Below, piece after piece: positions 1,596 through 39,659 of a DNA stretch of 64,000 bases (position 1 is its first letter; each line of letters begins with the position of its first letter). A model generated the notes under the pieces. The model saw nothing but the letters and a program-made list of their open reading frames with translations. It made no database searches and was not told where the DNA came from. The stretch is from sequence record NC_054919.1; one strand, 5' to 3'. The position numbers were made by a program, and so were the translations under genes. The DNA comes from Escherichia phage vB_EcoM_G4507.

Positions 1596-1782
1596 TATCT
1601 AAAATGTTGAAGTTAAAAGATACAGCCCAGTCAGTGCAGACCGTGACCTTTTTAATACAATTATCTTCAACCTCTAGCGGTTCAAACCAATATTCAATAA
1701 TTTCTTTATGACCAATATCATCTTTTACTTCGCATTCAAAATGCTGACTCATCATAACATTTTTAAATTCATCAAAAGTCAT
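1519..1782 (-). CDS. Small hypothetical protein (46.2 position)
   Basis: ATG at 1782 overlaps gp47 stop (ATGA coupling). Confidence 0.5.
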   Translation of the reverse strand: MTFDEFKNVMMSQHFECEVKDDIGHKEIIEYWFEPLEVEDNCIKKVTVCTDWAVSFNFNILDNDTPKSLRDMAVSCIKDAYCEVFDI

Positions 1783-2798
1783 TGTGTTGCCTCTACATAT
1801 AGCTGATTCGCATATTGAATAAGTGCTTCACGGTCAGAATCAGTGATGTCTGGAATTGCATTAATGTATTCTTCCATCAACGTCTGAAGAGATTGAACTT
1901 CAACTTCTTCACTGTCATCTGACTCGACAGAGTTATCAATCTTTGACACAACTCGTAATGAATGCACAACTTTTTCTAGTTCAGATTCGAACTTCGTTAG
2001 ATTTTTGTCTACTTCAGTTACTATAACACGTACTGATAGATTTGTAAAATCTTTATAGTCAATTTTTCCTTTAAATGGATAATGAATTCTACGATGCCAG
2101 GTAGTGTTGTTTGGAATAAATTCCATTCGTTCTGTTTCTGTATCAAACATCCAGAACCCACGAGGGTCATTCTCGTCACCTGCAGTTAGTGTCCATGGTG
2201 TCCCAATATATCTGACGTTAGCAGCCTCAGAGATAGTATGGAAGTGACCAGACCACACCTCTTTATAAGTCTTAAGGAAATCAGGTTCAAGACCGTGAGA
2301 TTTCATTCCTTTATAAAAATAAAATCCATTCAGTTCCCAGTGACCGACGCAAAAAGAAGCAGATGAAGTTTTGATGTGCTCAAGAATTTCACCAGTATTT
2401 TCTTCACACATCCAAGGAATTAAATCAATTAAACATCCGTCAAAATCTACTGTAGTAGGCTTATCATATACTTTAACATTAGGATATTTAGCCAAAAGCT
2501 CAGTAGAGGCATTTGGATGCATTACATTTTTGTAGTGGAGATCGTGATTTCCTACAATAGTATGTAATGTGATTCCAGCGTCATCAAGCATTTGAACTAT
2601 TTCACGGGCAAACTCCATAGTTTTATGCGTGATTGCTTTTCGCACATCAAAAATATCACCATATTGAATCCATACAGTAATTCCATTTTTCTTAGAATAT
2701 TCTATCGCTTGCTTAATTCCATCAATTTGAATACCGCGAATCCACTCATCATCAGCTTTAACGCCTAAATGCCAATCACCCAAGTTTAGTATTTTCAT
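1779..2798 (-). CDS. 47: Recombination endonuclease subunit gp47 (Mre11/SbcD-like phosphoesterase)
   Basis: 339 aa, ATG start; GDWHLG and GNHDLH phosphoesterase motifs; same length as T4 gp47. Confidence 0.9.
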   Translation of the reverse strand: MKILNLGDWHLGVKADDEWIRGIQIDGIKQAIEYSKKNGITVWIQYGDIFDVRKAITHKTMEFAREIVQMLDDAGITLHTIVGNHDLHYKNVMHPNASTELLAKYPNVKVYDKPTTVDFDGCLIDLIPWMCEENTGEILEHIKTSSASFCVGHWELNGFYFYKGMKSHGLEPDFLKTYKEVWSGHFHTISEAANVRYIGTPWTLTAGDENDPRGFWMFDTETERMEFIPNNTTWHRRIHYPFKGKIDYKDFTNLSVRVIVTEVDKNLTKFESELEKVVHSLRVVSKIDNSVESDDSEEVEVQSLQTLMEEYINAIPDITDSDREALIQYANQLYVEATQ

Positions 2799-3399
2799 GG
2801 TGTCTTTTCCATCCTAATTTAGCTGCTTTTGAAACCAGTTCTTTAATTTTTCCTTTTGTCCATTCAGGACCAGGAGGTTCATGACATAACATTTGCTTAA
2901 CTCCGTTATTATACCATTTTTTACCTTTATTATGTGATGAAGCTTTAAATTTATTTGACCTTCCTTTTACATAACCTTCTGGAATATAAGGCAAAAAGGC
3001 AGATTTTCCTGTTAATGGATCATGTGAATGTATATTTCCTTTACAATTATGAGAACCATATAATGGATGATTTTGTCCTTTATTATCTCTTCCAAACGAA
3101 CCTTTTGGAGCAGCATATGACATATTAAAGAATAATGGATTTTTAACTGCATCATGCAATCGTTGATAATATAACTCGCATTTAATAGCTTCTTCACGCG
3201 TATCAAATTCAGCTAAAATGCATGAATCAAATAAGTGAGGATTATCTGAAAGCTCTTTATTATAAATTTTCTTATACTTTTTAGATAAAACTGAACCATG
3301 ATATCCAGCTAAATGCCTATCTAAAGACGTAGATCCAATATAAAAAGGAGGAAGTTTATCTCCACTATATATTGTTAAATAAGTTATATATTTTTTCAT
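2776..3399 (-). CDS. GIY-YIG family homing-endonuclease-like protein (Seg-like)
   Basis: 207 aa, ATG start; N-terminal TYLTIY...FYIGST and FDSCILAEF..REEAIKCELYYQRL resemble the GIY-YIG nuclease domain of I-TevI/Seg proteins; Gly/Lys/His-rich C-terminal half. Confidence 0.5.
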   Translation of the reverse strand: MKKYITYLTIYSGDKLPPFYIGSTSLDRHLAGYHGSVLSKKYKKIYNKELSDNPHLFDSCILAEFDTREEAIKCELYYQRLHDAVKNPLFFNMSYAAPKGSFGRDNKGQNHPLYGSHNCKGNIHSHDPLTGKSAFLPYIPEGYVKGRSNKFKASSHNKGKKWYNNGVKQMLCHEPPGPEWTKGKIKELVSKAAKLGWKRHHENTKLG

Positions 3400-3559
3400 A
3401 TATCAAGAACCGTCATTGAAATGCAAAATAAAATTATTGAAATAAATCCATCTGGAGTGCTAAAGAACCCAATCCAACATGCTCTAGTGAATAAATAAAA
3501 TGCAAGAAAAAGTATCACATATCCAAGAAATATCATTATATCAAACTCCGTATAAAGCT

Positions 3560-3577
3560 AAAGGGCCGAAGCCCTTT
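3560..3577 (-). terminator. C(UUCG)G tetraloop hairpin at 3' end of a-gt (RNA stability / terminator element)
   Basis: AAAGGGC-CGAA-GCCCTTT inverted repeat (UUCG loop on minus transcript) overlapping a-gt stop. Confidence 0.55.
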
Positions 3578-4778
3578 ATTTTGTAATAATGTCAAACTGT
3601 TCTTTAAAGCAGAAGCTTGAATCTTGGTGCTGATATAAAAATTCATATGCTTTTTCTCGCTCACGGTCATAAAGAGCTCGGTCAGATGACAGTTCTTTAA
3701 TACGTTCAAATGTTGATTCCATATCATTTTCATCAAACCAAATGATACCGCTATCATGCGAGGTCAAAGGAGTATTATCAACACGGAATTTTAAATTTTC
3801 GCCAGTAGATTTCCAAAATACCGGAATTGTTCCACATGCACCAAGCTCGAGATGAGTATATTCTAAAGAACGTTGTAGATATTTTTTGTCCAACTTACTC
3901 AGCTGATAACCAAATCCGGATTTACTCATGCGTTCAAGCATTTCGCTATTTACATAACGGTCAAGAATTTGCGTTGGCAAATTAGGAGCAATTTTAATTT
4001 GGTCTACTTGATGAAGACGATAATACTCGTATGGAATTCCTTTTTCTTTAATAGGAATGAACGCTGGAGAACGTTCCAGACCTTCCATAATAGTACTTAG
4101 TCCTGCAGGTTTAAGATGTTTTTCATGAAAATCAAACATCTGATAAAAGCCTTTCCATGTAGTCGTACGACCAATCCAACGGTTGATATTCATGTTAATT
4201 TCAGAAACATCTTTCCAGTAGGTTGACCGAACCTTCGCAATATCCATAGGAGGCTGAAAGTTATATACGGTCGGCGCTTCTTCAATATCATCAAACAGAG
4301 AAACTGTTTCTGGATACCATTCTTTCATCAAAACTTTATTAAAGTCACCATTATCAGAATGGCTAAAAATAACATCAGCTCGACGAACAGTTTCTTCTAA
4401 TCCCAAATTTCGGCGCAAAGAAAGAGAAGAATGGTCATGTTGATAAACTACAACACGAACCGAAGGTTTAATGTTATCAATAATTTTTTTATAGTTATTA
4501 ATAGTGTCTTCTTCAACCGAAGTAGCAGGAACTGAATTAATAATTAGAATATCACAATCATTTACCAGCTTAAGTGTTTTATCATATTCTTTTGCCAATA
4601 AAACCGGAATTGAAAATGATTTATAATCATGCGCGCAATTACGAGTAAATGATTTATCTTTAGCATAAACCAAAGTTACTTCATGACCATTTTTAATAAA
4701 CCAATCACGTTGCTCGAGTGAGAATTTTGTTACACCACAACCTTCAAGACCTCGAGCCATAAAAATACATACTTTCAT
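3576..4778 (-). CDS. a-gt: DNA alpha-glucosyltransferase
   Basis: 400 aa, ATG start; sequence and length match T4 a-gt; position between 47 and 55. Confidence 0.85.
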   Translation of the reverse strand: MKVCIFMARGLEGCGVTKFSLEQRDWFIKNGHEVTLVYAKDKSFTRNCAHDYKSFSIPVLLAKEYDKTLKLVNDCDILIINSVPATSVEEDTINNYKKIIDNIKPSVRVVVYQHDHSSLSLRRNLGLEETVRRADVIFSHSDNGDFNKVLMKEWYPETVSLFDDIEEAPTVYNFQPPMDIAKVRSTYWKDVSEINMNINRWIGRTTTWKGFYQMFDFHEKHLKPAGLSTIMEGLERSPAFIPIKEKGIPYEYYRLHQVDQIKIAPNLPTQILDRYVNSEMLERMSKSGFGYQLSKLDKKYLQRSLEYTHLELGACGTIPVFWKSTGENLKFRVDNTPLTSHDSGIIWFDENDMESTFERIKELSSDRALYDREREKAYEFLYQHQDSSFCFKEQFDIITK

Positions 4779-4828
4779 TTAATATCCTCTTTGTTTTGGT
4801 TTATTTTACCAAAAATTTATAAAGCAAT

Positions 4829-4848
4829 ATAGGAGCCGAAGCTCCTAT
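4829..4848 (-). terminator. UUCG tetraloop hairpin
   Basis: ATAGGAGC-CGAA-GCTCCTAT. Confidence 0.55.
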
Positions 4849-5036
4849 CCACATAATACGCCATACAGAGGCTCGTTAGAACTTTTAAATTTTATGCGCT
4901 TATATTTTATAGTTCCTTCTGCTTTAGCTTTATCATGAGACTCTTTAAAGCGTCTCATCATTTCCTCTTGAGAGGAACGAATTTTATTATAATCTATTTC
5001 AGAAGTCTGGTGTTCATCTTTCATAACTGCCACCAT
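4845..5036 (-). CDS. Small hypothetical protein
   Basis: ORF track; tiles minus strand between a-gt and 55. Confidence 0.4.
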   Translation of the reverse strand: MVAVMKDEHQTSEIDYNKIRSSQEEMMRRFKESHDKAKAEGTIKYKRIKFKSSNEPLYGVLCG

Positions 5037-19556: not shown

Positions 19557-20525
19557 TTATTTCAGAAGAGTAACCTCAGCGATTTCTTCCCAACCGTTTT
19601 TGTCGGTCATAATAAAGTCAGCAAGATAAAGAGCAGTACGCAGTGAAACATTGCGTAAACGATTAACATTGACTTTCATCCATGATAATGCTTTATAAGT
19701 TTCTTCATCAGAAAGACCGCGCTTTTGCATCATGTCAGTTGAAAGAATAACATCTTCAACCCTGACCATAATTTCTTCATTAGTGTGAACACCCAAATCC
19801 AAATAAACTGAGCGGGACACTAATGCTTGTAAATGTGGAGCAAGTTTAGTACCACGGTCTAATTCGCGGTCAATGTCAACGTTTGTGATAAAAACAATCG
19901 TTCCTTTAAATTCAAACTCACGCTCAATGCCTTTTTCTTCTAAGTAAGAAGATGCAGTGCTCCAGCAGACTTTACGGGTCTCTCCAGTGTCCAGAGCAGC
20001 TTTCAGAAGATTAAGAATGTCCATATCAGAGAAAACATCCACATCATCAATCAAAAGGACAGAATTCTCTTCACGATTATTCCAAAGCTGCTCATAAAGA
20101 CCAATACCAGAGATTTTACCATTAATGCTTTTATATTCAATGTATCCAATATCATTTGCTTTATTTAAAGCTTTATCTAAAGAATACGTTTTACCAATAC
20201 CCGCCGCACCAGAGATAATTAATGAACGAATGTTTCCGTTAATAATACCATTCGTCATCATTCCCATAACATTAAATCTTTTATTAATGCGGGTTTTCAT
20301 ATCTTCATATGATTCTTTAACTTCTTCAACTTTTACACCATCATATGAAATGTCTGATTTGTAAACCCAAACACCGCGACGTTTACCGTCAATTTCAACA
20401 AAAACTTTACCATCTCCTTGTGCATCTACCGGAGCATTATCTGGGAACCATTCACCTAAGAGCTCAAAAGTTCCAGAGATTTCTTTACCGAAGTAGATAC
20501 CCTTATTGATAGTTACAGTTTTCAT
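19557..20525 (-). CDS. P-loop NTPase (Walker A/B ATPase)
   Basis: Walker A GAAGIGKT, Walker B LLIDDVD; ATG at 20525 with GGAG SD; early promoter and hairpin upstream. Confidence 0.6.
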   Translation of the reverse strand: MKTVTINKGIYFGKEISGTFELLGEWFPDNAPVDAQGDGKVFVEIDGKRRGVWVYKSDISYDGVKVEEVKESYEDMKTRINKRFNVMGMMTNGIINGNIRSLIISGAAGIGKTYSLDKALNKANDIGYIEYKSINGKISGIGLYEQLWNNREENSVLLIDDVDVFSDMDILNLLKAALDTGETRKVCWSTASSYLEEKGIEREFEFKGTIVFITNVDIDRELDRGTKLAPHLQALVSRSVYLDLGVHTNEEIMVRVEDVILSTDMMQKRGLSDEETYKALSWMKVNVNRLRNVSLRTALYLADFIMTDKNGWEEIAEVTLLK

Positions 20526-20559
20526 TTTATTCTCCAAATCCGTATCAGTTGATAGTTGT

Positions 20560-20589
20560 ATAGTACCATAAAGCTTTATGCTTGTAAAC
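20560..20589 (-). promoter_or_regulatory. T4-type early promoter
   Basis: GTTTAC, 18 nt, TACTAT; upstream of ATG at 20525. Confidence 0.55.
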
Positions 20590-20620
20590 TGTTTTGTGAA
20601 AAAATTTTTTGAAATAAAAA

Positions 20621-20638
20621 GGGAGCCCGAAGGCTCCC
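20621..20638 (-). terminator. UUCG tetraloop hairpin
   Basis: GGGAGCC-CGAA-GGCTCCC, 3' of nucleotidyltransferase gene and 5' of early promoter. Confidence 0.55.
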
Positions 20639-20640
20639 TA

Positions 20641-21654
20641 TCATTTATAATAACTTCGGTGGTTTTCAAGATAAACCCTCTCAAGGAAGTCATCCCAGAA
20701 ACCCATGTCTACTTTTTGCTGCATACCGTTCTTAGAAGCTTCAGTAGATGCTGCTTCTACTTGATCGACCACATCTTCCAAAAACTCTTGAACTATTTTA
20801 AATGGATGTTTACCCAACTTCACGTCGAGAATAAATGGAGCATCTTGAAGTGGATAAATCAAGTCACCAGTTTTGTAAATTTCCAATAGTTGAAGTCCAC
20901 CACGACAAGCATGACTCAGAGCTTTCCAGTCAATGCCTTCATTGGCTTCGGCCTTACGAGCACGTTCACCATATTCAGCATCTAATTTGTTCAGTGACTG
21001 CTTAAGCTCAATAAGAGAAAGCGTTGTCTGATATTTACGACCCAACACAGTGTAGAACGTTTGAGGACCTGTTTTCTCGTGGTTATGGAATACCCATTCA
21101 CAGAATTCGTTCTCTGGAAGACGATGCTTAATATCTTCAACTTTAGTACGACGATGCTTAATGGAACCGTCTTCTTGGTAATCAACCCACTGATCGGGGA
21201 TTTGATTAACGACTTTCAATACATCGCGTAATGCAGCCAAACGAGAACCTTTAACACCATATTTAGAGGCTTGTTTACGAACATATCCTAAATAAGATTT
21301 CATGTTCGTCGTATAAAAACGAGAACGGTTGTCTTGAATAAACTTCCACACATCAGGCAAATCAGATTTAACCACTAGTTCAGGTGGAGTGTGAAGCATA
21401 TCCAATGCTACAGTTTCACCATCTGCTGCTAATTTAAAGAAATACTTAAGACTATACAATTCATGGTCAATATCATCTTTAGTGTTTTTAGATGATGTGT
21501 TGTTGGTATTTTTACTCATATGCTCTTTAACATTTCCGATAAGAATATCACGAGCAGGAGGAACAAAAATTTCTTTAAAATCTACATCAGATTCTGGAGT
21601 AGAAGTTCCATAAAGATGACTACCAAAATAGCTTTTCATTACTGTTTTCATCAT
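20641..21654 (-). CDS. Pol-beta-type nucleotidyltransferase-fold protein
   Basis: N-terminal GSHLYGTSTPESDVD (G[SG]x10DxD) minimal nucleotidyltransferase signature; 337 aa. Confidence 0.5.
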   Translation of the reverse strand: MMKTVMKSYFGSHLYGTSTPESDVDFKEIFVPPARDILIGNVKEHMSKNTNNTSSKNTKDDIDHELYSLKYFFKLAADGETVALDMLHTPPELVVKSDLPDVWKFIQDNRSRFYTTNMKSYLGYVRKQASKYGVKGSRLAALRDVLKVVNQIPDQWVDYQEDGSIKHRRTKVEDIKHRLPENEFCEWVFHNHEKTGPQTFYTVLGRKYQTTLSLIELKQSLNKLDAEYGERARKAEANEGIDWKALSHACRGGLQLLEIYKTGDLIYPLQDAPFILDVKLGKHPFKIVQEFLEDVVDQVEAASTEASKNGMQQKVDMGFWDDFLERVYLENHRSYYK

Positions 21655-22112
21655 TCAGCCTTATATTCAATAACAGGACATACTTTAGCTTTACGAGCTT
21701 TTAAAAATTCAACGATAATCGATTTCTTGGATTGAATAGGAGTTAAACCTTTATACGCCCTATCAATATTTTCTACGTGTAAAGCATAATCCTTTTTCCA
21801 TTTATAATCTTTATATTTTTCACGCAAATGTGCAGGAATAACAAATGAACTGATAATAAGTAAAACAACCAAAAGCGCAAGTATAAATGCCGATGGAAGA
21901 AGAGTCCATAAACTGCCAAAAATAAACCAACGCTGTAGGCTTTCTGCACAAATAATTGTTAGTCCTACGAGTATAGCACATCCAAAAATAGAAACGAAAA
22001 ATGTAGGAATAACAATAGACCAAAAATACGCGCATAGTGTCTTAGGTCGTTGCCATTCATCGTTAAACAATTTGAATAATTTATAGTGCCAAGAGTTTTC
22101 ATTAATAATCAT
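21651..22112 (-). CDS. Membrane protein
   Basis: Two long hydrophobic segments. Confidence 0.5.
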   Translation of the reverse strand: MIINENSWHYKLFKLFNDEWQRPKTLCAYFWSIVIPTFFVSIFGCAILVGLTIICAESLQRWFIFGSLWTLLPSAFILALLVVLLIISSFVIPAHLREKYKDYKWKKDYALHVENIDRAYKGLTPIQSKKSIIVEFLKARKAKVCPVIEYKAE

Positions 22113-22114
22113 AA

Positions 22115-22636
22115 TTATCCTTTCATTGAAGGCGTAACGGTTGTTAAATACTTAATCATAGCTTCAGCTTCTGATTTTGATAATGAAATTTCTCCATTGT
22201 TTTGACGAATAGAAATAAAATCCGGATGACGGTCACCACCAGCTTTTAAAACGCACATATAAGTATCAACTTCGCCTTCAATATTTGAAATGATTGAAGC
22301 AGTTCCACATGAATGTGGTTTTTGATAAATCAATACAGCTTTTCTTCCACCGTTTGACTGTTCATAGGCTTTTAATACATCAAGCAAATCAGTTCTTTTA
22401 TCAATAGCTAAAATGTTATTTTCATCTTCAATGTTAAATCCTTCGGATACTTCATAAAGTGTTACCCATAAATCACCGATGTCAATAACAGCATTTACTT
22501 TTCCACGACTTTCAAGAGTATGACAAATTTTCTTGATTTCGTCATAACTCATTTTAATAATATCATCTCCTTGACTAAGGAAGATGTCATTTTTAAATTC
22601 AACACGAATTAAACCGCTTCCACTTGAAATAAACAT
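22115..22636 (-). CDS. Hypothetical protein (paralog of 22643-23197)
   Basis: C-terminal SEAEAMIKYLTTVTPSM similar to neighbour. Confidence 0.5.
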   Translation of the reverse strand: MFISSGSGLIRVEFKNDIFLSQGDDIIKMSYDEIKKICHTLESRGKVNAVIDIGDLWVTLYEVSEGFNIEDENNILAIDKRTDLLDVLKAYEQSNGGRKAVLIYQKPHSCGTASIISNIEGEVDTYMCVLKAGGDRHPDFISIRQNNGEISLSKSEAEAMIKYLTTVTPSMKG

Positions 22637-22642
22637 ATTTCC

Positions 22643-23197
22643 TCACTTTGAAATCATAGTTGGAATAACAGAATCAAGATAAGTCTTTAGTGCAATAGCT
22701 TCGTCTTTGGTAAATGTGACAATATGTGCTCGAGAATCATCAATTTGGCGAACAAGTACGACATCGCCATCTTCATAAGAAGTCTTGACATCCAAAGTCG
22801 TAGTATAATTTGCAGCTACTGGATTAATAATGCTAGCACCGCGATCTTTAGCCCATTGAAGTTTAGCCTTTTCGGGTGTTTCGATTGTTTCAGATTCCAA
22901 GAATTCTTTCACCTTGGTAACGAATGTTGCCCAATTGTTGATAGAAAGACACATAAATTCAGTTTCAATATTACCGCCGTAAAGGCCACGATAAAAACGA
23001 ACTTGGAGGTCGCCTGTAATATTAGTTACACCGGTAACTCCTGAGGGAGCATAAGATAAAATCGCAGCCAGTTCCATAGGAAGAATAGTAATACTATCGT
23101 CTTCCTGCGTCAGAACGTATACATTATCACGTTTTTCGATAACCAGGTCACCTAACAAATCAGTTGTTTCAATTACAGCTTTCATATTATTTACCAA
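22643..23197 (-). CDS. Hypothetical protein (paralog of 22115-22636)
   Basis: C-terminal DEAIALKTYLDSVIPTM. Confidence 0.5.
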   Translation of the reverse strand: MVNNMKAVIETTDLLGDLVIEKRDNVYVLTQEDDSITILPMELAAILSYAPSGVTGVTNITGDLQVRFYRGLYGGNIETEFMCLSINNWATFVTKVKEFLESETIETPEKAKLQWAKDRGASIINPVAANYTTTLDVKTSYEDGDVVLVRQIDDSRAHIVTFTKDEAIALKTYLDSVIPTMISK

Positions 23198-23372
23198 TTA
23201 AAGTTTCAATATAAGAATCAAGATTTACTTTAGCTTCTTCCATAAGAGTTTTGTATTTAATCTTGTTAGCATGTCCGGAGAAAGCTGATTCATCAATAAT
23301 TGTTGATGTATGAACAGCTCTACTATACGTCTCAATTAATTCTCTTAATTTAAAAGCCTGCTCACTTGTCAT
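23187..23372 (-). CDS. Small acidic helical protein (paralog family)
   Basis: ORF track; similar to 23700-24136 and 25911-26281 ORFs. Confidence 0.45.
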   Translation of the reverse strand: MTSEQAFKLRELIETYSRAVHTSTIIDESAFSGHANKIKYKTLMEEAKVNLDSYIETLIGK

Positions 23373-23494
23373 TACATACTCCTTTGAATAATATCAATAA
23401 TGTTGTTCACCAAATTATACGTAAACATTGGGTAATTATATTGAATCATCACATACACAACAAACAAAACTTTCATTCTCTTCTCCTTGGCAGT

Positions 23495-23524
23495 TGACAA
23501 GATTACTATACCATAACCTTGCCA
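23495..23524 (-). promoter_or_regulatory. T4-type early promoter
   Basis: GTTTAC, 18 nt, TATAGT. Confidence 0.45.
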
Positions 23525-23699
23525 ACTTGTAAACCATTAAATGACGTTTTCGATAAAATTCTGAAGCTTTGTATGAGCATCAACCATGATTTTCATTTCT
23601 TCCTTTGCGAAAGCTGTGCCTCTTTCACGAGAAGAACATTCATAGTCAGAAACTGCATTAGCATATTCTTCAATTAGCTTCATTAAAAACATCTGCTTT

Positions 23700-23894
23700 T
23701 CAGTTTTCATTATTCCACCTAATCATTTCAAGATATTGAACTAACTTAGCTTTGGATTTATCCAAATCCTTTTTAGCTGTTTCTATACCGTCGTATGAAT
23801 ATCCTTCACAATGCTCAACTGCTAATTGATATGAATCTATTTCAACATCACGTGCTAATTTAATGATTTTTTCAAACTGTTCGTGTGTTAACAT
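23700..23894 (-). CDS. Small acidic helical protein (paralog family)
   Basis: ORF track. Confidence 0.45.
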   Translation of the reverse strand: MLTHEQFEKIIKLARDVEIDSYQLAVEHCEGYSYDGIETAKKDLDKSKAKLVQYLEMIRWNNEN

Positions 23895-23896
23895 AA

Positions 23897-24136
23897 TTAA
23901 ACTCTCATATTATGATCGATAATTTCATCAAGAAACATATCTAACGCTTCTATAGCATTATCCACTTTAGTTTCAAAGTCTTTAATGCCTTTATTCGAAA
24001 TACCCGATGAATACCAAGCAAAGTCAATCAGCTCTTCATCTGCTTTGCGAATTGAAGCCACTAATTCCTTGATTTTATCTGCTTGCTCTACGCTAATCAT
24101 TATTCCACCACATATGACAGAGAGAATATTGCACAC
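23897..24136 (-). CDS. Small acidic helical protein (paralog family)
   Basis: ORF track. Confidence 0.45.
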
Positions 24137-24288
24137 GCCATGTGAGTTGCAACTTCATCACACATATTATAACGTTTCTTAAGAAGTTCTACAAGTTCTT
24201 CACTAGTAACTTCATCCATGTCGACGAAAAAATCACCATTAATGATGACGTAGATATTTCCTTCTTGATTAAGTGCTTCAATTTTCAT
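24100..24288 (-). CDS. Small hypothetical protein; track start 24333 lies in a promoter, Met at 24288 more likely
   Basis: ORF track. Confidence 0.35.
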
Positions 24289-24316
24289 GATGTTCTCCTC
24301 TTTATCCGATGGTTGT

Positions 24317-24346
24317 ATAGTATCACAGCTCAAACGGAAAGTAAAC
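24317..24346 (-). promoter_or_regulatory. T4-type early promoter
   Basis: GTTTAC, 18 nt, TACTAT. Confidence 0.5.
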
Positions 24347-24361
24347 CGGTAAAATGAAAAA

Positions 24362-24379
24362 AGTCTCCCGAAGGAGACT
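24362..24379 (-). terminator. UUCG tetraloop hairpin
   Basis: AGTCTCC-CGAA-GGAGACT. Confidence 0.55.
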
Positions 24380-24383
24380 AATG

Positions 24384-24770
24384 TTATTCGAGGGAAAGAA
24401 GATACTTACTCTGGTAAAACATTCCAGTAATATCATCTATCGTGCTTTGAATGGCTGGAGGCATTTCTTTATAAATGCTGTTAGATTGGTCTAGTATGCG
24501 ATCAATCATTTTAATTGTGTCGGTAGGAAGTTTACTGGCATCTGGAATTGAAGGCGTGTATTTTCTACCAGAATACCCCAAATATTGCTCACCAAATTTA
24601 TCAATCAAATCTGGCAATTCGGAGAAAATAAAATCGTATGCTTTGTGTCTAGCATAACTTTTAGTTTCAAAATGCGCAGAATGAAAATAAGCTTGTGCAG
24701 CCATTAATAAACCTAAGTATTCATCTGCCTTTGAAGGTTTTCCACTTTGTGAAAAGTCGCTGAATTTCAT
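24384..24770 (-). CDS. Hypothetical protein (rI.-1 position)
   Basis: 128 aa; ATGA overlap with rI stop. Confidence 0.5.
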
Positions 24771-25060
24771 TCAGTCTCCAATTTAATGTTCATAATTCTA
24801 GTGTATGATTGTGCCATCTCCGCGCCTCGTTCTATACATTCGAAATCAGAAGAGCACGGGTCATTTTTATAGGTCGTTCTCATAAAACTATAGAACTGTT
24901 CAGATGATTCTACGCTTTTATTTTCAAAAAGCATATAAACATGTCTAATACCAGATTCCATAAATTTATCAAAATGAGGATCGACATTCGCTTCAATTGG
25001 TGGAGATAAAGCAAATGACAATCCTAGCATGGCAAATAGTGCCGTTGCTTTTAAGGCCAT
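24767..25060 (-). CDS. rI: Lysis inhibition regulator RI (periplasmic antiholin-binding protein)
   Basis: 97 aa with signal peptide MALKATALFAMLGLSF...; near-identical to T4 RI. Confidence 0.85.
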   Translation of the reverse strand: MALKATALFAMLGLSFALSPPIEANVDPHFDKFMESGIRHVYMLFENKSVESSEQFYSFMRTTYKNDPCSSDFECIERGAEMAQSYTRIMNIKLETE

Positions 25061-25072
25061 AAAGGCCTCCTA

Positions 25073-25285
25073 TCATTTTTGTCCTGTATTTACTTTATGC
25101 CGATGCACGGCCTTAACTTTATCAAGGTATTTTTCAAAATTTCGCAATCTAGTATAGTCTGCCGGAGATTGGTTGAGTGATACTTCTCGACGCAAAGCTG
25201 AAATGATATTTCCAACTTCCCTACGAATTTCATCTAATTGAAGCACAGTAAGATTGCGAAGTTGCTTTTCAGTTAATTGTAGCAT
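25073..25285 (-). CDS. Small hypothetical protein (rI.1 position)
   Basis: ORF track. Confidence 0.5.
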
Positions 25286-25327
25286 ATATACCCCTTTAGT
25301 TAGATAAACCTATTTATAACTTTTGCA

Positions 25328-25909
25328 CTAACCGAGCTTTTTAGTTAATTCGTTCCAGTGTTTTCTACACAAAGAAACATAAATTTCATCACCAATACAG
25401 ATTTGATTACCTTCTTTAACTGGTGTTCCATCTTCCATTAATCGAGCTGTCATAATCGCTTTTTTGCCGCAATGACAAACTGCCTTTAGTTCAATAAGTT
25501 TATCTGCAATCGCTAAAAGTTCTTTAGAACCTTCAAACAATTTTCCAGCGAAATCAGTCCTTAACCCATAAGCCATAACAGGAACATTATATGTATCAAC
25601 AATTCGACTCAATTGATGCACTTGTTCAGTTTTTAAAAACTGGGCTTCATCTACAAATACGCAATGAATATCTTTTTGTGCTTCAGCCCATTTATAGAAC
25701 TCGAAAATATCCATATCATCTGTAATAATATTCGCTTCCTGTTTAATTCCAATGCGAGAAACAACTTCACAGACAGAATCACGAGTATCAATAGCAGGCT
25801 TAAGAACTAATACACTCATTCCACGTTCTTTATAATTATGTGCAGCAGTCAAAAGAGAAGCAGATTTTCCAGCATTCATTGCTGCATAAGTAAAAATTAA
25901 ACTCGCCAT
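25328..25909 (-). CDS. tk: Thymidine kinase
   Basis: 193 aa; P-loop AMNAGKS; C-terminal Zn site CHCG...C..H; length equals T4 Tk. Confidence 0.9.
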   Translation of the reverse strand: MASLIFTYAAMNAGKSASLLTAAHNYKERGMSVLVLKPAIDTRDSVCEVVSRIGIKQEANIITDDMDIFEFYKWAEAQKDIHCVFVDEAQFLKTEQVHQLSRIVDTYNVPVMAYGLRTDFAGKLFEGSKELLAIADKLIELKAVCHCGKKAIMTARLMEDGTPVKEGNQICIGDEIYVSLCRKHWNELTKKLG

Positions 25910-25910
25910 C

Positions 25911-26099
25911 TTAGTCCTTAGTTAAATTTTCTAAATATGTTTCTAAATCATTTTCAGCTTTATCGATAGATTTTACTAATTCGTAATATGTTTCGGCATC
26001 TCCATATTCAGAAGATATTTCAAAAGACAAATCCTTTTCTAAACTAATAATTTCACCAACTAAAAATAATATTTCGTTCTTTTGTTCGCGAGTAATCAT
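25911..26099 (-). CDS. Small acidic protein (tk.1 position, paralog family)
   Basis: ORF track. Confidence 0.45.
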   Translation of the reverse strand: MITREQKNEILFLVGEIISLEKDLSFEISSEYGDAETYYELVKSIDKAENDLETYLENLTKD

Positions 26100-26281
26100 A
26101 AGGAATTTATATAATCAATGAGTTCTTGTTCTTTATTATCAAATTCTTTGGAAAGTTCTTCATATTCATTTGCGCTAAAAGGACCGCATTCATTACAAAC
26201 TTTTTCCAATTCACTATTTTTATCCATAATTTCGTGGATAAGAGAAAAGAGTTTGTCTTTTTGTTCTTTGCTTAGGCTCAT
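26096..26281 (-). CDS. Small acidic protein (tk.2 position, paralog family)
   Basis: ORF track. Confidence 0.45.
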   Translation of the reverse strand: MSLSKEQKDKLFSLIHEIMDKNSELEKVCNECGPFSANEYEELSKEFDNKEQELIDYINSL

Positions 26282-26447
26282 ATATTAATTTCCAGAAGTT
26301 TTAAAATAATTCGCTTTTGCTTAAATATTTCCACAGTTAAATGATCAGTATCTTTTTGACCAATTCCAATGGCAAAACCTTTATTAACAGCGAGTTCAAT
26401 TAAATTATCAAGTTCACGTAACACTTCATATTGTAACTCAGAACTAT

Positions 26448-26675
26448 TCATTTCGGTTTACCTTCTTTAACGAAATCTGGATAAGGATAAAATCCCGAAT
26501 AAAATCCTTCACCTTTATGATTGATGCATCCTTTATTAGAACAATAGCACCAATAATCGAAATCACAAGCCATTTCATCGTTACATAAAGCAAAAACAAC
26601 CGGCCACTTACACTTTTCACAGTGGGCATTTTTAAGAATACTAGTTTGGCTCATAACCATGTAACCTTTAAGCAA
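26448..26675 (-). CDS. Small Cys-rich (probable Zn-binding) protein
   Basis: CEKCK...C..C...CYC..GC pattern. Confidence 0.45.
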   Translation of the reverse strand: MLKGYMVMSQTSILKNAHCEKCKWPVVFALCNDEMACDFDYWCYCSNKGCINHKGEGFYSGFYPYPDFVKEGKPK

Positions 26676-26863
26676 TATTCTTCTACATGTTGTTTACGAC
26701 CTTTCTTATCAATAAAGGTATATTCAACGAATGTTCCAATGTAGTCTTTATCTACATCATGTGGACTATTAATTGGGCATTTAGTACGGCAAATGCGTTC
26801 CCATTGACGAATAATTACTGCTTTGTTTTTAGGATCAAACGGATGTGGGTAATGTACTTTCAT
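26651..26863 (-). CDS. Small hypothetical protein
   Basis: ORF track. Confidence 0.45.
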   Translation of the reverse strand: MKVHYPHPFDPKNKAVIIRQWERICRTKCPINSPHDVDKDYIGTFVEYTFIDKKGRKQHVEEYCLKVTWL

Positions 26864-27314
26864 AATCCACCACTATTAAATCAATATCAGGAGTAAACAT
26901 GTCGATTAATTTAGAAACCTTATCCCAATCGCCGCCAGCAATACCACAACCTATACGTGGAATGTAAATTACTGGTTTAAACAAAAGGGTTTCTGCCTGT
27001 AGATTTAATTCTATCATGCAGTTTACTAAAGCACCATAATCAAGATTAGGACCTGGTTCGTATTGCGTATACAAGTTATAACATATGCCAAACCCATTAG
27101 GTTTATGTTTAAAAACAATAGACATATCGCCTAATTTATCACGAGAACCGTACTCAGTAGTGGTTTTATCTATTTCTAAAATTTTGGGATAGGCTCTTGC
27201 TAATTGACCAGCTACACCACTGCCCATTGTATGAAAACAGTTACACCCGTGCGCAATAATATTACCTTCAAGAAAGAGGGCGACAATATCGCCCTTGATA
27301 TATTTTACAATCAT
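26835..27314 (-). CDS. Macro-domain-like protein (possible ADP-ribose binding/processing)
   Basis: GDIV..., HGCNC..MGSGVA and IGCGIAGG motifs resemble macro-domain Gly-rich loops. Confidence 0.4.
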   Translation of the reverse strand: MIVKYIKGDIVALFLEGNIIAHGCNCFHTMGSGVAGQLARAYPKILEIDKTTTEYGSRDKLGDMSIVFKHKPNGFGICYNLYTQYEPGPNLDYGALVNCMIELNLQAETLLFKPVIYIPRIGCGIAGGDWDKVSKLIDMFTPDIDLIVVDYESTLPTSV

Positions 27315-27658
27315 CTAGTACTCAATCCTCGATTATAAGAATCTACTAAACGGTCAACCATTGAATGACAAGCGGCTTTATCTTTTTCCTCCGCAACTGA
27401 ACATTCTAGGGTATTCCACTTTTTAGCATATCGTTTTAATAATGTATCGTTTTTGTATCTGCTTGATTTATCTCTTTCTCCGTCTTTATATGCATATATT
27501 AATTTCTGCGCAAATTCAGCTTGGCATGCTTTATTTTTCCCGCAATAATCTGCCGCAGTGCGGTTCACATACTCCCTAATTTCAGTATATGATGTATCTG
27601 CTGACGCATAAGCAGAAAATGAAATTAATCCTATACATAAAACCAAAATTTTAGTCAT
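27311..27658 (-). CDS. Secreted small protein, 115 aa (possibly Vs homolog by size and position)
   Basis: Signal peptide MTKILVLCIGLISFSAYASA. Confidence 0.5.
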   Translation of the reverse strand: MTKILVLCIGLISFSAYASADTSYTEIREYVNRTAADYCGKNKACQAEFAQKLIYAYKDGERDKSSRYKNDTLLKRYAKKWNTLECSVAEEKDKAACHSMVDRLVDSYNRGLSTR

Positions 27659-28196
27659 TTACTATTTCCAAAAGTTTATTATTTTTAAGGTAATTAGCCT
27701 TTTCTAGGACTTCAGAAGCATATTTAGAACCTGCTTTAACATTCCATCCCGAATTATAAGAGGATATTGCTTTTCTTATATCGCCCTTATGTATATTTAA
27801 CCAATAAGAAAGTTCAATGTACGCCCAGGAAGCTGAATTGGATCGTTTATTCAACATTCTTTTTATTTCAGCATCGGTCATATTATAACCAAGTTCCTTA
27901 ACTCTCGCTCGCATAGTAGGCAAATAATTTTGGAACATTCCGTAAGCATGATGTTTTGGTTTAGATTTTAAATTAACTCCGCCAGAGCTTTCTTGCCATA
28001 AAATAGCAGCCATTATATGACCTAATCCGCTCTTGTGGATATTTTTGTGTGTTTTATATTTTCCATCCTTAGAAAATTGTTCCCCGAATTGATACGCGTA
28101 ACGCATGTTATCGAGTTGGACATTACTGAAAGTATGCTCGGAGCTATGTGCCATCATTGAAATGGCCAATAGACCAGCGAGTAGTGCTTTTCTCAT
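27651..28196 (-). CDS. Secreted lytic-transglycosylase-like protein
   Basis: Signal peptide; ILWQESSGG motif resembling the SLT catalytic ES motif. Confidence 0.55.
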   Translation of the reverse strand: MRKALLAGLLAISMMAHSSEHTFSNVQLDNMRYAYQFGEQFSKDGKYKTHKNIHKSGLGHIMAAILWQESSGGVNLKSKPKHHAYGMFQNYLPTMRARVKELGYNMTDAEIKRMLNKRSNSASWAYIELSYWLNIHKGDIRKAISSYNSGWNVKAGSKYASEVLEKANYLKNNKLLEIVND

Positions 28197-28203
28197 GTTT
28201 ACC

Positions 28204-28665
28204 TCATTGAGTTTTAATTACTGCTTTAGAAGCCTTTCCTGGTAAACGACGACTGTTGATAATTGCCATCCTACATTGAAGTGACGGGTCTTTGAACTTC
28301 TCATTAGGTTTACAAACTGTAAATCCAAGCCAAAGATTTCCATCTGTAATTTCTAAACGTCCAGGACGATATTCAACTCCATCAATAAAATCCTCATCAA
28401 TGTCAGGACGCGGAGGCATACTCAGGAATTCATTAACTTCTAAAACATGGTCTTTTATTTTATGGAATAATTCAAAAACATATGTCTCATCAATCTCCCG
28501 TTGAATTGCACGATCAAGAAGATGTTGAGAATATTTTAGATGAAACGATGAGACCCCTGCTGCTTTTGATGCCTCACGAATCTCATTGTTAATTTGACGA
28601 AACTCCGACTCAAAGTGACGACGAAGCTTATTTCGACGGATAAAAACTTCTGTATTGATAGTCAT
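28204..28665 (-). CDS. regB: RegB site-specific endoribonuclease
   Basis: 153 aa; same length and position as T4 RegB; early promoter upstream. Confidence 0.75.
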   Translation of the reverse strand: MTINTEVFIRRNKLRRHFESEFRQINNEIREASKAAGVSSFHLKYSQHLLDRAIQREIDETYVFELFHKIKDHVLEVNEFLSMPPRPDIDEDFIDGVEYRPGRLEITDGNLWLGFTVCKPNEKFKDPSLQCRMAIINSRRLPGKASKAVIKTQ

Positions 28666-28692
28666 GTTATTCTCCTCTTAACTGATAGAAAA

Positions 28693-28722
28693 ATTATACC
28701 ACAGTCAAGAGGAAAAGTAAAC
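28693..28722 (-). promoter_or_regulatory. T4-type early promoter upstream of regB
   Basis: GTTTAC, 18 nt, TATAAT. Confidence 0.55.
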
Positions 28723-28796
28723 AGTTATTCTTTAAATCTAATCAATTTATTCATAGACTTTGAAACTTCTGCACGAACCTCATGTAAGTTTTTAAG

Positions 28797-29003
28797 CTAT
28801 TCAAGACGCTGCGTATAGTAAGCAATTTCATCTTCTTCGAGACAGTCCTGTGAATCTTCTTTAAGATAACGTGCATAGTCCTGAAAAGCTTTACGGACTA
28901 CTTCCTGGAAGTCATCAAGACTTTGAATTTTCTTAGGAGCGGCAGATACACGACGAGGTGCAGTATAATACTCATAACCAAACCCTGCACTTAATTGAGC
29001 CAT
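28797..29003 (-). CDS. Small hypothetical protein
   Basis: ATG at 29003 with GAGG SD (track start further upstream is alternative). Confidence 0.45.
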
Positions 29004-38031: not shown

Positions 38032-38118
38032 TGGTGCGAGAAGTGAGACTCGAACCCACAAGGAAATAATTCCGCAGCATTTTAAGTGCTGTGCCTTTAC
38101 CAATTTGACCATTCTCGC
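38032..38118 (-). tRNA. tRNA-Leu (anticodon UAA), type II
   Basis: Matches T4 tRNA-Leu; anticodon loop CUUAAAA. Confidence 0.85.
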
Positions 38119-38119
38119 G

Positions 38120-38192
38120 CTGGGAATAAAGGACTCGAACCTTTGCATCCTGGAATCAAAATCCAGTGCCTTACCAACTTGGCTAATTCCCA
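38120..38192 (-). tRNA. tRNA-Gln (anticodon UUG)
   Basis: Matches T4 tRNA-Gln; 1 nt from tRNA-Leu (Gln-Leu dimer); CCA not encoded. Confidence 0.85.
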
Positions 38193-38289
38193 ATTATTAA
38201 CAAAGGCTCTTTAGCAAGAACCCTTGATGATAGAGGGTATTAATCAGTGCGGTATGAGTTAATAATAACAAATAATTCTTAAAGCATAT

Positions 38290-38583
38290 TTACCATTTAT
38301 GATAATACATATTTACGATGCATTCAAGGCCCAAAGGATTCCTGAAAATATCATATTCAAGAGGACCTTTTTCTGTTTCAATAAAGAAATCAAAATTTAC
38401 TGTATTAAATTTACGGTCTTCCTTCACTAATTTAACTTGGGAAGATGAACGGTCAACATAAACCTTTTCAACTTCAAAACACGTTAAAACGCCATAATCA
38501 TCAATCAAGGCTTTAGCCGCGTCTTGATCATATTTATATCCATTTTCAATGGACGATACTTTTGCATAAAGAATCATTATCAC
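38290..38583 (-). CDS. Hypothetical protein
   Basis: ORF track. Confidence 0.5.
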   Translation of the reverse strand: MIMILYAKVSSIENGYKYDQDAAKALIDDYGVLTCFEVEKVYVDRSSSQVKLVKEDRKFNTVNFDFFIETEKGPLEYDIFRNPLGLECIVNMYYHKW

Positions 38584-38960
38584 ACTCCGTAGTCTATCTT
38601 GACCAATCTACCTTTGTAGTAGCCAAAGTTCTTTGGAAAGGCATCATACTCAAAGAAATCACGGTCAAGCGTTCTGCATTCATCACCATCAACATCATTA
38701 TAGAGCTTTTGCAAATCAGATTTAAAAAGCTCCTTATCCTCAACTGGCTCTGCTTTGTGCATCACAACCATGAGACCAAATCTGTTTGAGTATGCTATTG
38801 GGCATAGGTATTTGTTATCATACCCCTTCCACTGACCTTCTGTAAGATTGCTGAGCATACCCTGCACGAAGTGTTTCCATGTCTTGGGGATAGGGAACTT
38901 AATAGCATACTTATGTGTTAGTAGTACCCATCTGGTTCCACCCGATTTAATTAATTTCAT
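38580..38960 (-). CDS. Hypothetical protein
   Basis: ORF track; ATGA overlap. Confidence 0.5.
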   Translation of the reverse strand: MKLIKSGGTRWVLLTHKYAIKFPIPKTWKHFVQGMLSNLTEGQWKGYDNKYLCPIAYSNRFGLMVVMHKAEPVEDKELFKSDLQKLYNDVDGDECRTLDRDFFEYDAFPKNFGYYKGRLVKIDYGV

Positions 38961-39631: not shown

Positions 39632-39659
39632 TTTATTCTCCTCAGTAGTTGATAGGGTA

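What the first reader, a model, noticed from the sequence alone, without database searches (positions are those of the whole stretch)
2776..3399. GIY-YIG homing-endonuclease-like ORF between genes 47 and a-gt
The 207-aa protein has a GIY-YIG-like N-terminal domain (…TYLTIY…FYIGST… and FDSCILAEFDTREEAIKCELYYQRL, closely resembling the I-TevI segment FECSILEEIPYEKDLIIERENFWIKEL) followed by a Gly/Lys/His-rich tail reminiscent of Seg-protein DNA-binding regions. It overlaps the start of gene 47 by 23 nt. It is a candidate free-standing homing endonuclease, possibly truncated, that could drive marker exclusion at the 47/a-gt junction.
Basis: inference. Interest (0 to 1): 0.5.

Follow-up and report, generated by a model that had tools for sequence, protein, structure and literature searches.

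The report
Seg-like homing endonuclease gene upstream of gene 47
This is an intact selfish "homing endonuclease" gene of a well-known type, sitting just in front of recombination gene 47 in about one in eight T4-like phages; it is a new, untested member of a familiar class, not a new kind of element.

Summary
The ORF is real: 2776-3399, minus strand, 207 aa, overlapping gene 47 by 23 nt. More precisely, it is a 601-bp insertion between the small gene 47.1 and gene 47, relative to T4.

- **Not truncated.** It is as long as its closest relatives, and dN/dS between two alleles is 0.05-0.10.
- **Patchy distribution.** 67 of 517 phage records with this gene-47 start carry it. T4, T2 and T6 lack it.
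- **Same site elsewhere.** Relatives occupy the same site in other Tevenvirinae genera. A sister lineage with a different C-terminal half sits in front of the topoisomerase gene.
- **Recoded flank.** Carriers have four consecutive synonymously changed codons at the start of gene 47, a candidate immune target site.

This is a new, uncharacterised member of the free-standing Seg-type homing endonucleases. Cleavage and homing were not tested. Public records already call it "putative homing endonuclease", or wrongly "HNH endonuclease".

The parts
2776..3399 (-). Complete 207-aa ORF: Seg-like free-standing GIY-YIG homing endonuclease gene
   Evidence: ORF list; PHROG 10820 at E=1e-94 and phrog_314 'homing endonuclease' at 5e-18; Pfam GIY-YIG E=3e-4; dN/dS 0.05-0.10 between alleles
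3100..3399 (-). N-terminal nuclease domain (about aa 1-100). Family-invariant residues: Y7, T9, Y11, G13, P17, Y20-I21-G22-S23, Y33, G35, S39, L56, F57, A71, E75, N92
2776..3087 (-). C-terminal half (about aa 105-207): a half NUMOD3-like GxNHPLYG motif, then two beta-hairpin modules ending in PEGYVKGR and PEWTKGK, then a basic helix. Presumed DNA-binding and target-recognition region
2799..3399 (-). 601-bp insertion relative to T4, T2, T6 and teqdroes. Its boundaries are ambiguous within a 7-nt ATGAAAA present at both ends (3393-3399 and 2792-2798)
   Evidence: Pairwise alignment with T4. In 450 of 517 records the match stops exactly at query position 199, which is window base 2798
2776..2798 (-). 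23-nt overlap of the ORF 3' end with the start of gene 47, in a different reading frame. The ORF residues H-E-N are encoded by gene 47's ATGAAAAT
   Evidence: The same 23-nt overlap is annotated in fPS-90, P922, SA20RB and Gelderlandvirus SEA1. The C-terminal '[HN]EN' is shared by many of the gene-47-type homologues, though not all, e.g. P0007 and P0020
2781..2790 (-). Four synonymous changes in gene 47 codons 3-6 (ATT TTA AAT TTA to ATA CTA AAC TTG; window bases 2790, 2789, 2784, 2781). Candidate immune version of the endonuclease target
   Evidence: The chimeric-query searches show the linkage with ORF presence. Function as an immunity site is inferred
1779..2798 (-). Gene 47 (SbcD/Mre11-like recombination nuclease subunit): the gene the element is associated with and its probable target gene
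   Evidence: Pfam Metallophos; T4 annotation; homologues of the ORF sit directly upstream of gene 47 in five genera
3396..3536 (-). Gene 47.1 (46-aa predicted membrane protein). Its stop codon overlaps the ORF start (ATGA); in T4 the same stop overlaps the gene 47 start
   Evidence: phrog_6693 at 1.5e-31
3535..3558 (-). MotA-type middle-promoter-like site (GCTT-N14-TATAAT) overlapping the 47.1 ATG. Probable source of the transcript carrying the ORF and genes 47-46
   Evidence: Pattern match. The equivalent site is annotated as a middle promoter in phage SA20RB. This is a consensus match only
3559..3578 (.). GC-rich hairpin after a-gt, terminator-like. It separates a-gt from the 47.1-ORF-47 unit
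   Evidence: annotated as a terminator in fPS-90 and SA20RB

Best explanation
The ORF encodes a free-standing (intron-less) homing endonuclease of the Seg type.

**Protein.** An N-terminal GIY-YIG nuclease domain is joined to a C-terminal DNA-recognition half.

**Expression (inferred).** It is probably transcribed in middle mode, from the MotA-type promoter that normally serves gene 47. It is translated from the initiation region that gene 47 uses in T4.

**Mechanism (inferred by analogy with SegE, SegF, SegG and I-TevI).**
1. In a cell co-infected with a related phage that lacks the gene, the enzyme cuts that phage's DNA at or near the 47.1/47 junction or the first codons of gene 47.
2. The break is repaired by recombination, using the carrier genome as template.
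3. Repair copies the 601-bp element and nearby markers into the recipient. This is localised marker exclusion.
4. The carrier genome is protected because the insertion splits the site, because codons 3-6 of its gene 47 are synonymously recoded, or both.

**Shown here:** the gene, the fold, the motifs, purifying selection, the patchy distribution with exact breakpoints, the same-site relatives in other genera, and the recoded flank.

**Inferred:** cleavage activity, cut position, immunity and homing.
For: **Fold.**
- AF2 model pLDDT is above 90 for residues 1-100.
- Foldseek top hits are 1ln0 and 1mk0, probability 0.98-0.99.

**Motifs.**
- Both tyrosines, YIG, E75 and N92 are invariant across the 36 aligned homologues.
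- They line up with the T4 Seg signature YIG...GY(M/L)GS...E...YN.
- SegE is the closest T4 protein (28% over 193 aa; family HMM 25.7 bits), then SegG.

**Function retained.** dN/dS is 0.05-0.10 between the two Tequatrovirus alleles.

**Mobility signature.**
- 67 of 517 records carry it, and in the rest the match ends exactly at the gene 47 ATG.
- T4, T2, T6 and teqdroes lack it.
- FriedrichMiescher, classified in the same species as teqdroes, has it.

**Conserved target association.**
- 61-80% identical homologues lie directly upstream of gene 47 in Dhakavirus, Gelderlandvirus and the Klebsiella phage KPV15, and at the equivalent genome position in Serratia phage LC53.
- In SEA1 the upstream neighbours are different, so the link is to gene 47.

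**Modularity.** A sister lineage with the same nuclease domain (58-71% identity) but NUMOD3 tails sits directly upstream of the topoisomerase gene.

**Recoded flank.**
- All examined carriers except ERS-1 have ATA CTA AAC TTG or a one-base variant of it (P922), where 11 of the 12 examined empty-site genomes have ATT TTA AAT TTA.
- No carrier other than ERS-1 comes closer than 96% to an 'ORF + T4-type start' query.
- The ERS-1 copy is full of frameshifts.

**Precedent.** Reviewed in PMC2988022: SegE is inserted at inh/uvsW and targets uvsW; seg genes use middle or late promoters; homing co-converts flanking markers.
Against: - No cleavage or inheritance data exist for this protein. I found no paper on it.
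- The Pfam GIY-YIG score is below the gathering threshold. Sequence and profile searches of the PDB find nothing. hhalign against I-TevI is not significant.
- The catalytic Arg of I-TevI (R27) has no conserved counterpart. This protein has R28, but relatives have K, N, Q or E there. The active T4 Seg proteins also lack an aligned Arg, so this weighs little.
- The four recoded codons lie within 18 nt of the insert, so they would stay linked to it whether or not they matter for immunity.
- Five empty-site records (four phages, e.g. SHFML-26) carry the recoded version, and one carrier record has the T4-type version.
- At least two carriers (ZCEC15, ESh36) have a +1 frameshift in an A-run. Not every copy is intact, or these are sequencing errors.
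Confidence: 0.8

Rival explanations
1. Domesticated or retained nuclease. The gene arrived by homing but is now kept for another reason and no longer homes efficiently. One possibility is that it carries the translation start context for gene 47. Another is that it acts as a weapon against co-infecting phages by breaking their gene 47. T4 SegD is a precedent: the 2010 review lists its activity as not determined.
For: - The 3' overlap with gene 47 is conserved across genera. The ORF has taken over gene 47's native initiation region, so deleting it could harm gene 47 expression.
- Purifying selection is strong.
- Retention through embedded expression signals is described for segA, segE, segG, mobB and mobC in PMC2988022.
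Against: - The patchy distribution (13% of records, both states within one species) and near-identical copies in different genomic backgrounds fit ongoing spread better than stable domestication.
- SHFML-26 has the recoded flank but no ORF. If that reflects loss of the element, clean loss is viable.
Confidence: 0.12
2. Inactive relic. The ORF is intact but the enzyme has lost cleavage activity, as in the defunct T4 I-TevIII or mobA, and it persists only by linkage.
For: - The Pfam score is below the cut-off.
- There is no conserved Arg at the I-TevI R27 position.
- Some copies are frameshifted.
Against: - dN/dS is 0.05-0.10.
- The catalytic Tyr, Tyr, Glu and Asn are invariant in the 36 aligned homologues, and the nuclease domain matches 1,164 50%-identity clusters at E<=1e-10.
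- 49 records have copies at least 99% identical at the protein level.
Confidence: 0.06
3. HNH endonuclease, as RefSeq/PGAP records and PHROG 10820 label it.
For: Only the labels themselves: 'HNH endonuclease' in many RefSeq records and in the PHROG 10820 description.
Against: - There is no HNH Pfam hit at E<=1; the only hit is GIY-YIG.
- The predicted fold matches GIY-YIG nucleases.
- The motifs align with the Seg proteins.
- Other submitters call relatives 'GIY-YIG homing endonuclease'.
Confidence: 0.01

Closest known systems
T4 SegE (free-standing GIY-YIG homing endonuclease, inserted at inh/uvsW, targets uvsW)
   Same: - It is the closest T4 protein: 28% identity over 193 of 207 residues, and 25.7 bits with the family N-terminal HMM.
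- The sizes are alike (205 vs 207 aa).
- It has the same YIG...GY.GS...E...YN motif set.
- It has the same layout, sitting directly upstream of a conserved DNA-metabolism gene that is its target (Table 1 of PMC2988022).
   Different: - The insertion site and presumed target differ (47.1/47 rather than inh/uvsW).
- The similarity is too low for tblastn to find at E<1e-5 (T4 and most T4-like phages did not appear).
- This ORF overlaps its neighbour's start by 23 nt.
- Its activity is untested.
T4 SegG, SegA, SegB, SegC, SegD (Seg clade)
   Same: GIY-YIG domain with the Seg-type GY(M/L)GS motif and no I-TevI-like Arg-containing insertion. Family HMM E-values run from 5e-7 (SegG) to 1.4e-3 (SegC) against a 13-sequence set. 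All are free-standing, patchily distributed and intergenic.
   Different: The family here has its own strongly conserved signature (Y-x-T-Y-L-T-I-Y-x-G-x-K-L-P-P-F-YIGST) and forms a large separate group (1,164 clusters at E<=1e-10). The C-terminal halves are different.
I-TevI (intron-encoded GIY-YIG homing endonuclease of the T4 td intron)
   Different: - This gene is not intron-encoded.
- There is no significant sequence similarity.
- It lacks the R27-containing helix segment.
- It has no zinc finger or helix-turn-helix tail.
Sister lineage upstream of the topoisomerase large-subunit gene (Yersinia phage TG1 gp009; E. coli phages IME281 and EcWhh-1; fragmented in Klebsiella phage Merci)
   Same: Nuclease domain 45-71% identical. 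Also sits immediately upstream of a conserved replication gene and overlaps its start, by 8 nt in TG1, IME281 and EcWhh-1 and by about 35 nt in the fragmented Merci copy.
   Different: The C-terminal half carries NUMOD3 motifs instead of the two hairpin modules, and the target gene is different. This looks like target switching by exchange of the DNA-binding half.

Membership tests
GIY-YIG nuclease superfamily | Three-stranded sheet flanked by helices (GIY-YIG fold) | tested here: met
GIY-YIG nuclease superfamily | 'GIY' and 'YIG' tyrosine motifs on strands 1 and 2 | tested here: met
   Y11 (in TIY) and Y20-I21-G22 are invariant in the 36 homologues and align with the I-TevI and Seg motifs.
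GIY-YIG nuclease superfamily | Catalytic Glu (I-TevI E75) and Asn (I-TevI N90) | tested here: met
   E75 and N92 are invariant and align with the Glu and Asn of I-TevI and the Seg proteins.
GIY-YIG nuclease superfamily | Conserved Arg in the first helix (I-TevI R27) | tested here: inconclusive
   This protein has R28, but the column is R, K, N, Q or E in relatives. In the alignment SegA-E and SegG also lack a counterpart of the I-TevI FEKRWKRH segment. Several of these Seg proteins are listed as active enzymes in PMC2988022.
GIY-YIG nuclease superfamily | Pfam PF01541 match above the curated gathering score | tested here: not met
   21.4 bits against a 22.6-bit cut-off, E=3e-4, covering model positions 2-74 of 78. 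13 of the 36 relatives match at E<0.01, best 2.4e-5. A near miss, outweighed by the fold evidence.
Free-standing (Seg-type) homing endonuclease genes of T4-like phages | Stand-alone ORF between genes, not inside an intron or intein | tested here: met
   It lies between 47.1 and 47, and both neighbours are intact and collinear with T4.
Free-standing (Seg-type) homing endonuclease genes of T4-like phages | Presence/absence polymorphism among close relatives, with a precise boundary | tested here: met
   67 of 517 records carry it. The match breaks exactly at the gene 47 ATG in the others. Both states occur within the species Tequatrovirus teqdroes.
Free-standing (Seg-type) homing endonuclease genes of T4-like phages | Sequence differences at the target in the carrier genome (self-immunity) | tested here: inconclusive
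   Four consecutive synonymously recoded codons sit next to the insert in all examined carriers but ERS-1, with one position reverted in P922. Linkage alone could explain this, and five empty-site records (four phages) carry the recoded form.
Free-standing (Seg-type) homing endonuclease genes of T4-like phages | Site-specific double-strand cleavage of the allele that lacks the gene | not testable with these tools
   Needs a biochemical assay. No publication was found.
Free-standing (Seg-type) homing endonuclease genes of T4-like phages | Nuclease-dependent preferential inheritance, with co-conversion, in mixed infections | not testable with these tools
   Needs phage crosses.
HNH endonucleases (the label in RefSeq and PHROG 10820) | HNH / beta-beta-alpha-metal motif | tested here: not met
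   No HNH family appears among Pfam hits at E<=1, and fold hits are GIY-YIG. The label is an annotation error.

The most novel reading that the evidence does not exclude
The ORF represents a very large, still unnamed branch of Seg-like GIY-YIG nucleases. Its highly conserved nuclease domain has been repeatedly joined to different DNA-binding tails to reach new targets, such as the gene 47 start and the topoisomerase gene start. The gene-47 lineage may do more than home. By breaking a competitor's gene for the Mre11-like recombination nuclease during co-infection, it could act as an interference weapon, and the recoded codons 3-6 would be the matching immunity allele. SHFML-26 and three other phages would then be naturally immune genomes that do not carry the element.
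Probability: 0.15. Interest if true: 0.5.

Novelty: new member of a known kind. Interest (0 to 1): 0.3.

Why it matters
Free-standing homing endonucleases account for localised marker exclusion and much of the mosaic structure among T-even phages.

This one marks a homing site that T4 does not use: the 47.1/47 junction. It adds a third variable endonuclease slot to the 46-to-a-gt region, alongside mobB and the 46/46.1 element seen in T2 and T6.

It also offers a ready natural test set:
- carrier phages;
- empty, T4-type phages;
- empty but recoded phages.

These could be used to map a GIY-YIG target and its immunity determinants.

On the practical side, it corrects a widespread RefSeq and PHROG mislabel ("HNH endonuclease"). 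It is relevant to anyone mixing or engineering T4-like therapeutic phages, because such genes bias recombination around them.

It is not a new kind of system.

Tried and rejected
- **Sequence searches of the PDB.** A direct search with the protein and a search with a 36-sequence profile found no GIY-YIG chain. hhalign of the family profile against the I-TevI catalytic domain gave E=0.23. The fold assignment therefore rests on the predicted structure.
- **NCBIfam.** No meaningful hit.
- **PADLOC.** Only a weak hit to a model itself named 'homing endonuclease', E=0.01. There is no sign of a defence-system role.
- **Paralogues in the window.** A family N-terminal HMM searched against all six-frame ORFs of the window found none.
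- **RNA hairpins.** None hides the start of the ORF or of gene 47; folding z-scores were +1.9 and +0.7.
- **Sigma-70 promoter scan of 2600-3800.** Not enriched: 5 sites against 6.8 expected.
- **A retracted lead.** I first read phages KNP1 and KNP5 as carrying an internally deleted copy. The 'deletion' is a run of N in the assembly, so I withdrew it.
- **ERS-1.** This is the only carrier with a T4-type gene 47 start. It is an 'UNVERIFIED_ORG' record with many frameshifts in the ORF and a 4-nt insertion in gene 47, so I give it little weight either way.
- **IMG/VR scan with gp47.** It yielded only 42 dereplicated loci, too few Tequatrovirus genomes for statistics. The GenBank phage collection was used instead.
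- **Literature.** Three searches found no paper that names or tests this gene.
Full report

Yes. Gene 47 (Metallophos, 339 aa) is 1779..2798 (-) and a-gt (PF11440, E=1.8e-237) is 3576..4778 (-). The 23-nt overlap with gene 47 (2776-2798) is correct.

One refinement is needed. A 46-aa gene, 47.1 (3396-3536), lies between a-gt and the ORF. The ORF's ATG overlaps its stop codon (ATGA).

Aligned with T4, everything is collinear except a clean 601-bp insertion (2799-3399) between the 47.1 stop and the gene 47 start. The heptamer ATGAAAA occurs at both edges. In T4 the same ATGA joins 47.1 directly to gene 47. So the inserted ORF has taken over gene 47's original initiation context, and gene 47 now starts inside the ORF's last eight codons.

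**2. What is the protein?**

*Sequence profiles.*
- Pfam gives only GIY-YIG: E=3e-4, 21.4 bits against a 22.6-bit cut-off, covering 73 of 78 model positions.
- PHROGs gives phrog_10820 (E=1e-94, labelled 'HNH endonuclease') and phrog_314 ('homing endonuclease', 5e-18).
- Sequence and profile searches of the PDB were empty.

*Structure.* I predicted the structure from a 36-sequence alignment. Mean pLDDT is 83, and above 90 for residues 1-100.
- Foldseek against the PDB ranks the I-TevI catalytic domain first (1ln0 and 1mk0, probability 0.98-0.99), then UvrC.
- Nothing HNH-like appears, so the RefSeq and PHROG 'HNH' label is wrong.

*Conserved residues.* Across the 36 homologues the invariant residues include Y11, Y20-I21-G22, E75 and N92. 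In an alignment with the T4 proteins these fall on the Seg signature YIG...GY(M/L)GS...E...YN.

*Closest T4 proteins.* I extracted the T4 endonucleases from the T4 record. SegE is closest (28% identity over 193 aa; 25.7 bits with the family N-terminal HMM), then SegG.

*The missing Arg.* The canonical I-TevI Arg27 has no conserved counterpart. This protein has R28; relatives have K, N, Q or E. SegA-E and SegG also lack an aligned counterpart of that segment.

**3. Is it truncated or decaying?**

No.
- The nearest homologues are 201-210 aa and align end to end.
- Two alleles in Tequatrovirus differ by about 20 synonymous and 4-6 non-synonymous changes, giving dN/dS of 0.05-0.10.
- Some copies are damaged. 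ZCEC15, and by the same tblastn pattern ESh36, have +1 A in an A-run that cuts off the last 44 residues. ERS-1 has many frameshifts, but that record is of doubtful quality.
- An apparent internal deletion in KNP1 and KNP5 is an assembly gap of Ns.

**4. Distribution.**

A 401-nt probe across the ORF/47 junction hits 517 phage records.
- 67 records cover the junction.
- In the remaining 450 the match stops exactly at the A of the gene 47 ATG.
- tblastn agrees: 67 records have copies at least 90% identical.

T4, T2, T6, ESh25 and teqdroes have the empty site. FriedrichMiescher, placed in the same species as teqdroes, has the ORF. In one search, RefSeq records with distinct phage names (e.g. ECO4, G9062, teqhad, G28, NBG2, PhiZZ23) carry an annotated endonuclease gene at this site.

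Relatives of 61-80% identity sit directly upstream of gene 47 in other genera:
- Dhakavirus ecom005 and QL01 (L026);
- Gelderlandvirus SEA1, with the same 23-nt overlap but different upstream genes;
- Klebsiella phage KPV15, frameshifted (L045);
- Serratia phage LC53, a 70% hit at the equivalent genome position, context not examined.

So the stable partner is the 5' end of gene 47.

A sister lineage has the same nuclease domain (45-71% identical) but NUMOD3-type tails. It sits directly upstream of the topoisomerase large-subunit gene and overlaps its start, by 8 nt in the intact copies: TG1, Merci, fragmented, and IME281 and EcWhh-1. Exhaustive HMMER finds 1,164 50%-identity clusters at E<=1e-10. 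Most match only residues 1-120 and have varied lengths. This is one conserved nuclease module carrying many different tails.

**5. Flanks.**

*The recoded codons.* In all twelve ORF-lacking genomes first compared, gene 47 begins ATG AAA ATT TTA AAT TTA GGT. In carriers it begins ATG AAA ATA CTA AAC TTG GGT. That is four consecutive codons, each changed synonymously (window bases 2790, 2789, 2784, 2781).

*Nothing else is linked.* No other site within 400 nt upstream or 450 nt downstream is consistently associated with the ORF.

*Two synthetic queries tested the linkage in the whole phage collection.*
- 'Empty site + recoded start' has five perfect single-piece matches among about 436 empty sites: SHFML-26 (two records), BCPEco_001, BCPSen_003 and Ec_YwIITB1.
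- 'ORF + T4-type start' is matched perfectly only by ERS-1. The other carriers listed are at 96%.

*Interpretation (inferred).* The cluster is what an immune target allele would look like, and a density of 4 changes in 10 nt far exceeds the 3-5% local background. But physical linkage to the insert would also keep it associated. SHFML-26-type genomes could be descendants that lost the element or naturally resistant alleles.

**6. Expression context.**

- A GC-rich hairpin follows a-gt (3559-3578).
- Next to it is a MotA-type middle-promoter pattern, GCTT-N14-TATAAT, at 3535-3558 (-). The equivalent site is annotated as a middle promoter in SA20RB.
- Its -10 box overlaps the 47.1 ATG, so on that transcript the first complete cistron would be the ORF. 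This is inference from a consensus match.
- Middle or late expression is the rule for T4 seg and mob genes (PMC2988022).
- No RNA structure masks either start site.

**7. Mechanism.**

The best-supported reading is a free-standing Seg-type homing endonuclease. It cuts the ORF-less allele at or near the 47.1/47 junction or the first codons of gene 47 during co-infection. It is then copied in by double-strand-break repair, together with adjacent markers, as shown experimentally for SegE (uvsW), SegF (gene 56) and SegG (gene 32) (PMC2988022). The steps from cleavage onward are inferred.

Rivals:
- a retained or domesticated nuclease that no longer homes;
- an inactive relic, which is disfavoured by dN/dS and the invariant catalytic residues;
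- an HNH enzyme, which is refuted.

**8. Novelty.**

Patchy seg-like genes in T4 relatives are textbook material (PMC2993671). GenBank submitters already call this ORF 'putative homing endonuclease'. I found no paper that names or tests it, and T4 has no element at this site.

It is therefore a new, uncharacterised member of a known kind. Its modest extra interest lies in the conserved overlap with gene 47, the candidate immunity recoding, and the clear tail-swapping between the gene-47 and topoisomerase lineages.

The window itself is a Tequatrovirus closest to phage ECP52 over 20-40 kb (99.9%). In the 1.7-4.9 kb region, however, only FriedrichMiescher reaches 99%, which is typical mosaicism.

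Noticed in passing
window 4779-4844 (between a-gt and the a-gt.2 homologue at 4845-5036): The window has no mobB here. T4 carries the 795-bp HNH homing endonuclease gene mobB between a-gt and a-gt.2. So this phage and T4 have swapped endonuclease occupancy within 2 kb: this ORF is present and mobB absent, and in T4 the reverse.
   Followed up: partly
window about 1294-1331 (between gene 46 and 46.1); loci L049, L056, L057: T2, T6 and SHFML-26 carry a third free-standing endonuclease gene between 46 and 46.1. It is 615-855 bp, and its product contains an 'EAHHVLP' His-rich stretch that looks HNH-like. It is absent from the window and from T4. The 46-to-a-gt stretch is a hotspot with three alternative endonuclease slots.
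   Followed up: partly
RefSeq records, e.g. NC_054911, NC_054920, NC_054933, NC_055723; PHROG 10820: The ORF is systematically annotated 'HNH endonuclease', although its only Pfam hit and its predicted fold are GIY-YIG. This is a propagated annotation error.
   Followed up: yes
L050 (PP337211.1, phage ERS-1) 2440-4064: This is the only carrier record with a T4-type gene 47 start. Its ORF copy has many frameshifts and its gene 47 has a 4-nt insertion. The record is flagged UNVERIFIED_ORG. It could be a decayed copy or a poor or chimeric assembly.
   Followed up: partly
L049 (Shigella phage SHFML-26) 3041-3060; also BCPEco_001, BCPSen_003, Ec_YwIITB1: These are empty 47.1/47 junctions that nevertheless carry the carrier-type recoded codons 3-6 of gene 47. 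In SHFML-26 the nearby gene-47 variants resemble carriers P922 and SA20RB. They are either clean losses of the element or pre-existing resistant alleles.
   Followed up: partly
window 3536-3757 (-), 73-aa ORF overlapping the 3' end of a-gt in another frame: An ORF of the same length and nearly the same sequence is present in KNP5 (L051 2683-2904). Because it lies inside a-gt, its conservation is probably just that of a-gt. It is not annotated in any record seen.
   Followed up: no
MT234342.1 Agrobacterium phage OLIVR5 and Rhizobium phages: Distant homologues (32-38% identity) occur in several copies per genome, up to 5 places in OLIVR5. This suggests the nuclease family has expanded in Rhizobium and Agrobacterium phages.
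   Followed up: no
window 20000-40000 versus 1700-4900: The window is 99.9% identical to phage ECP52 over 20-40 kb. Over 1.7-4.9 kb the only record at 99% or above is FriedrichMiescher. So there is a mosaic boundary somewhere between these two stretches.
   Followed up: no
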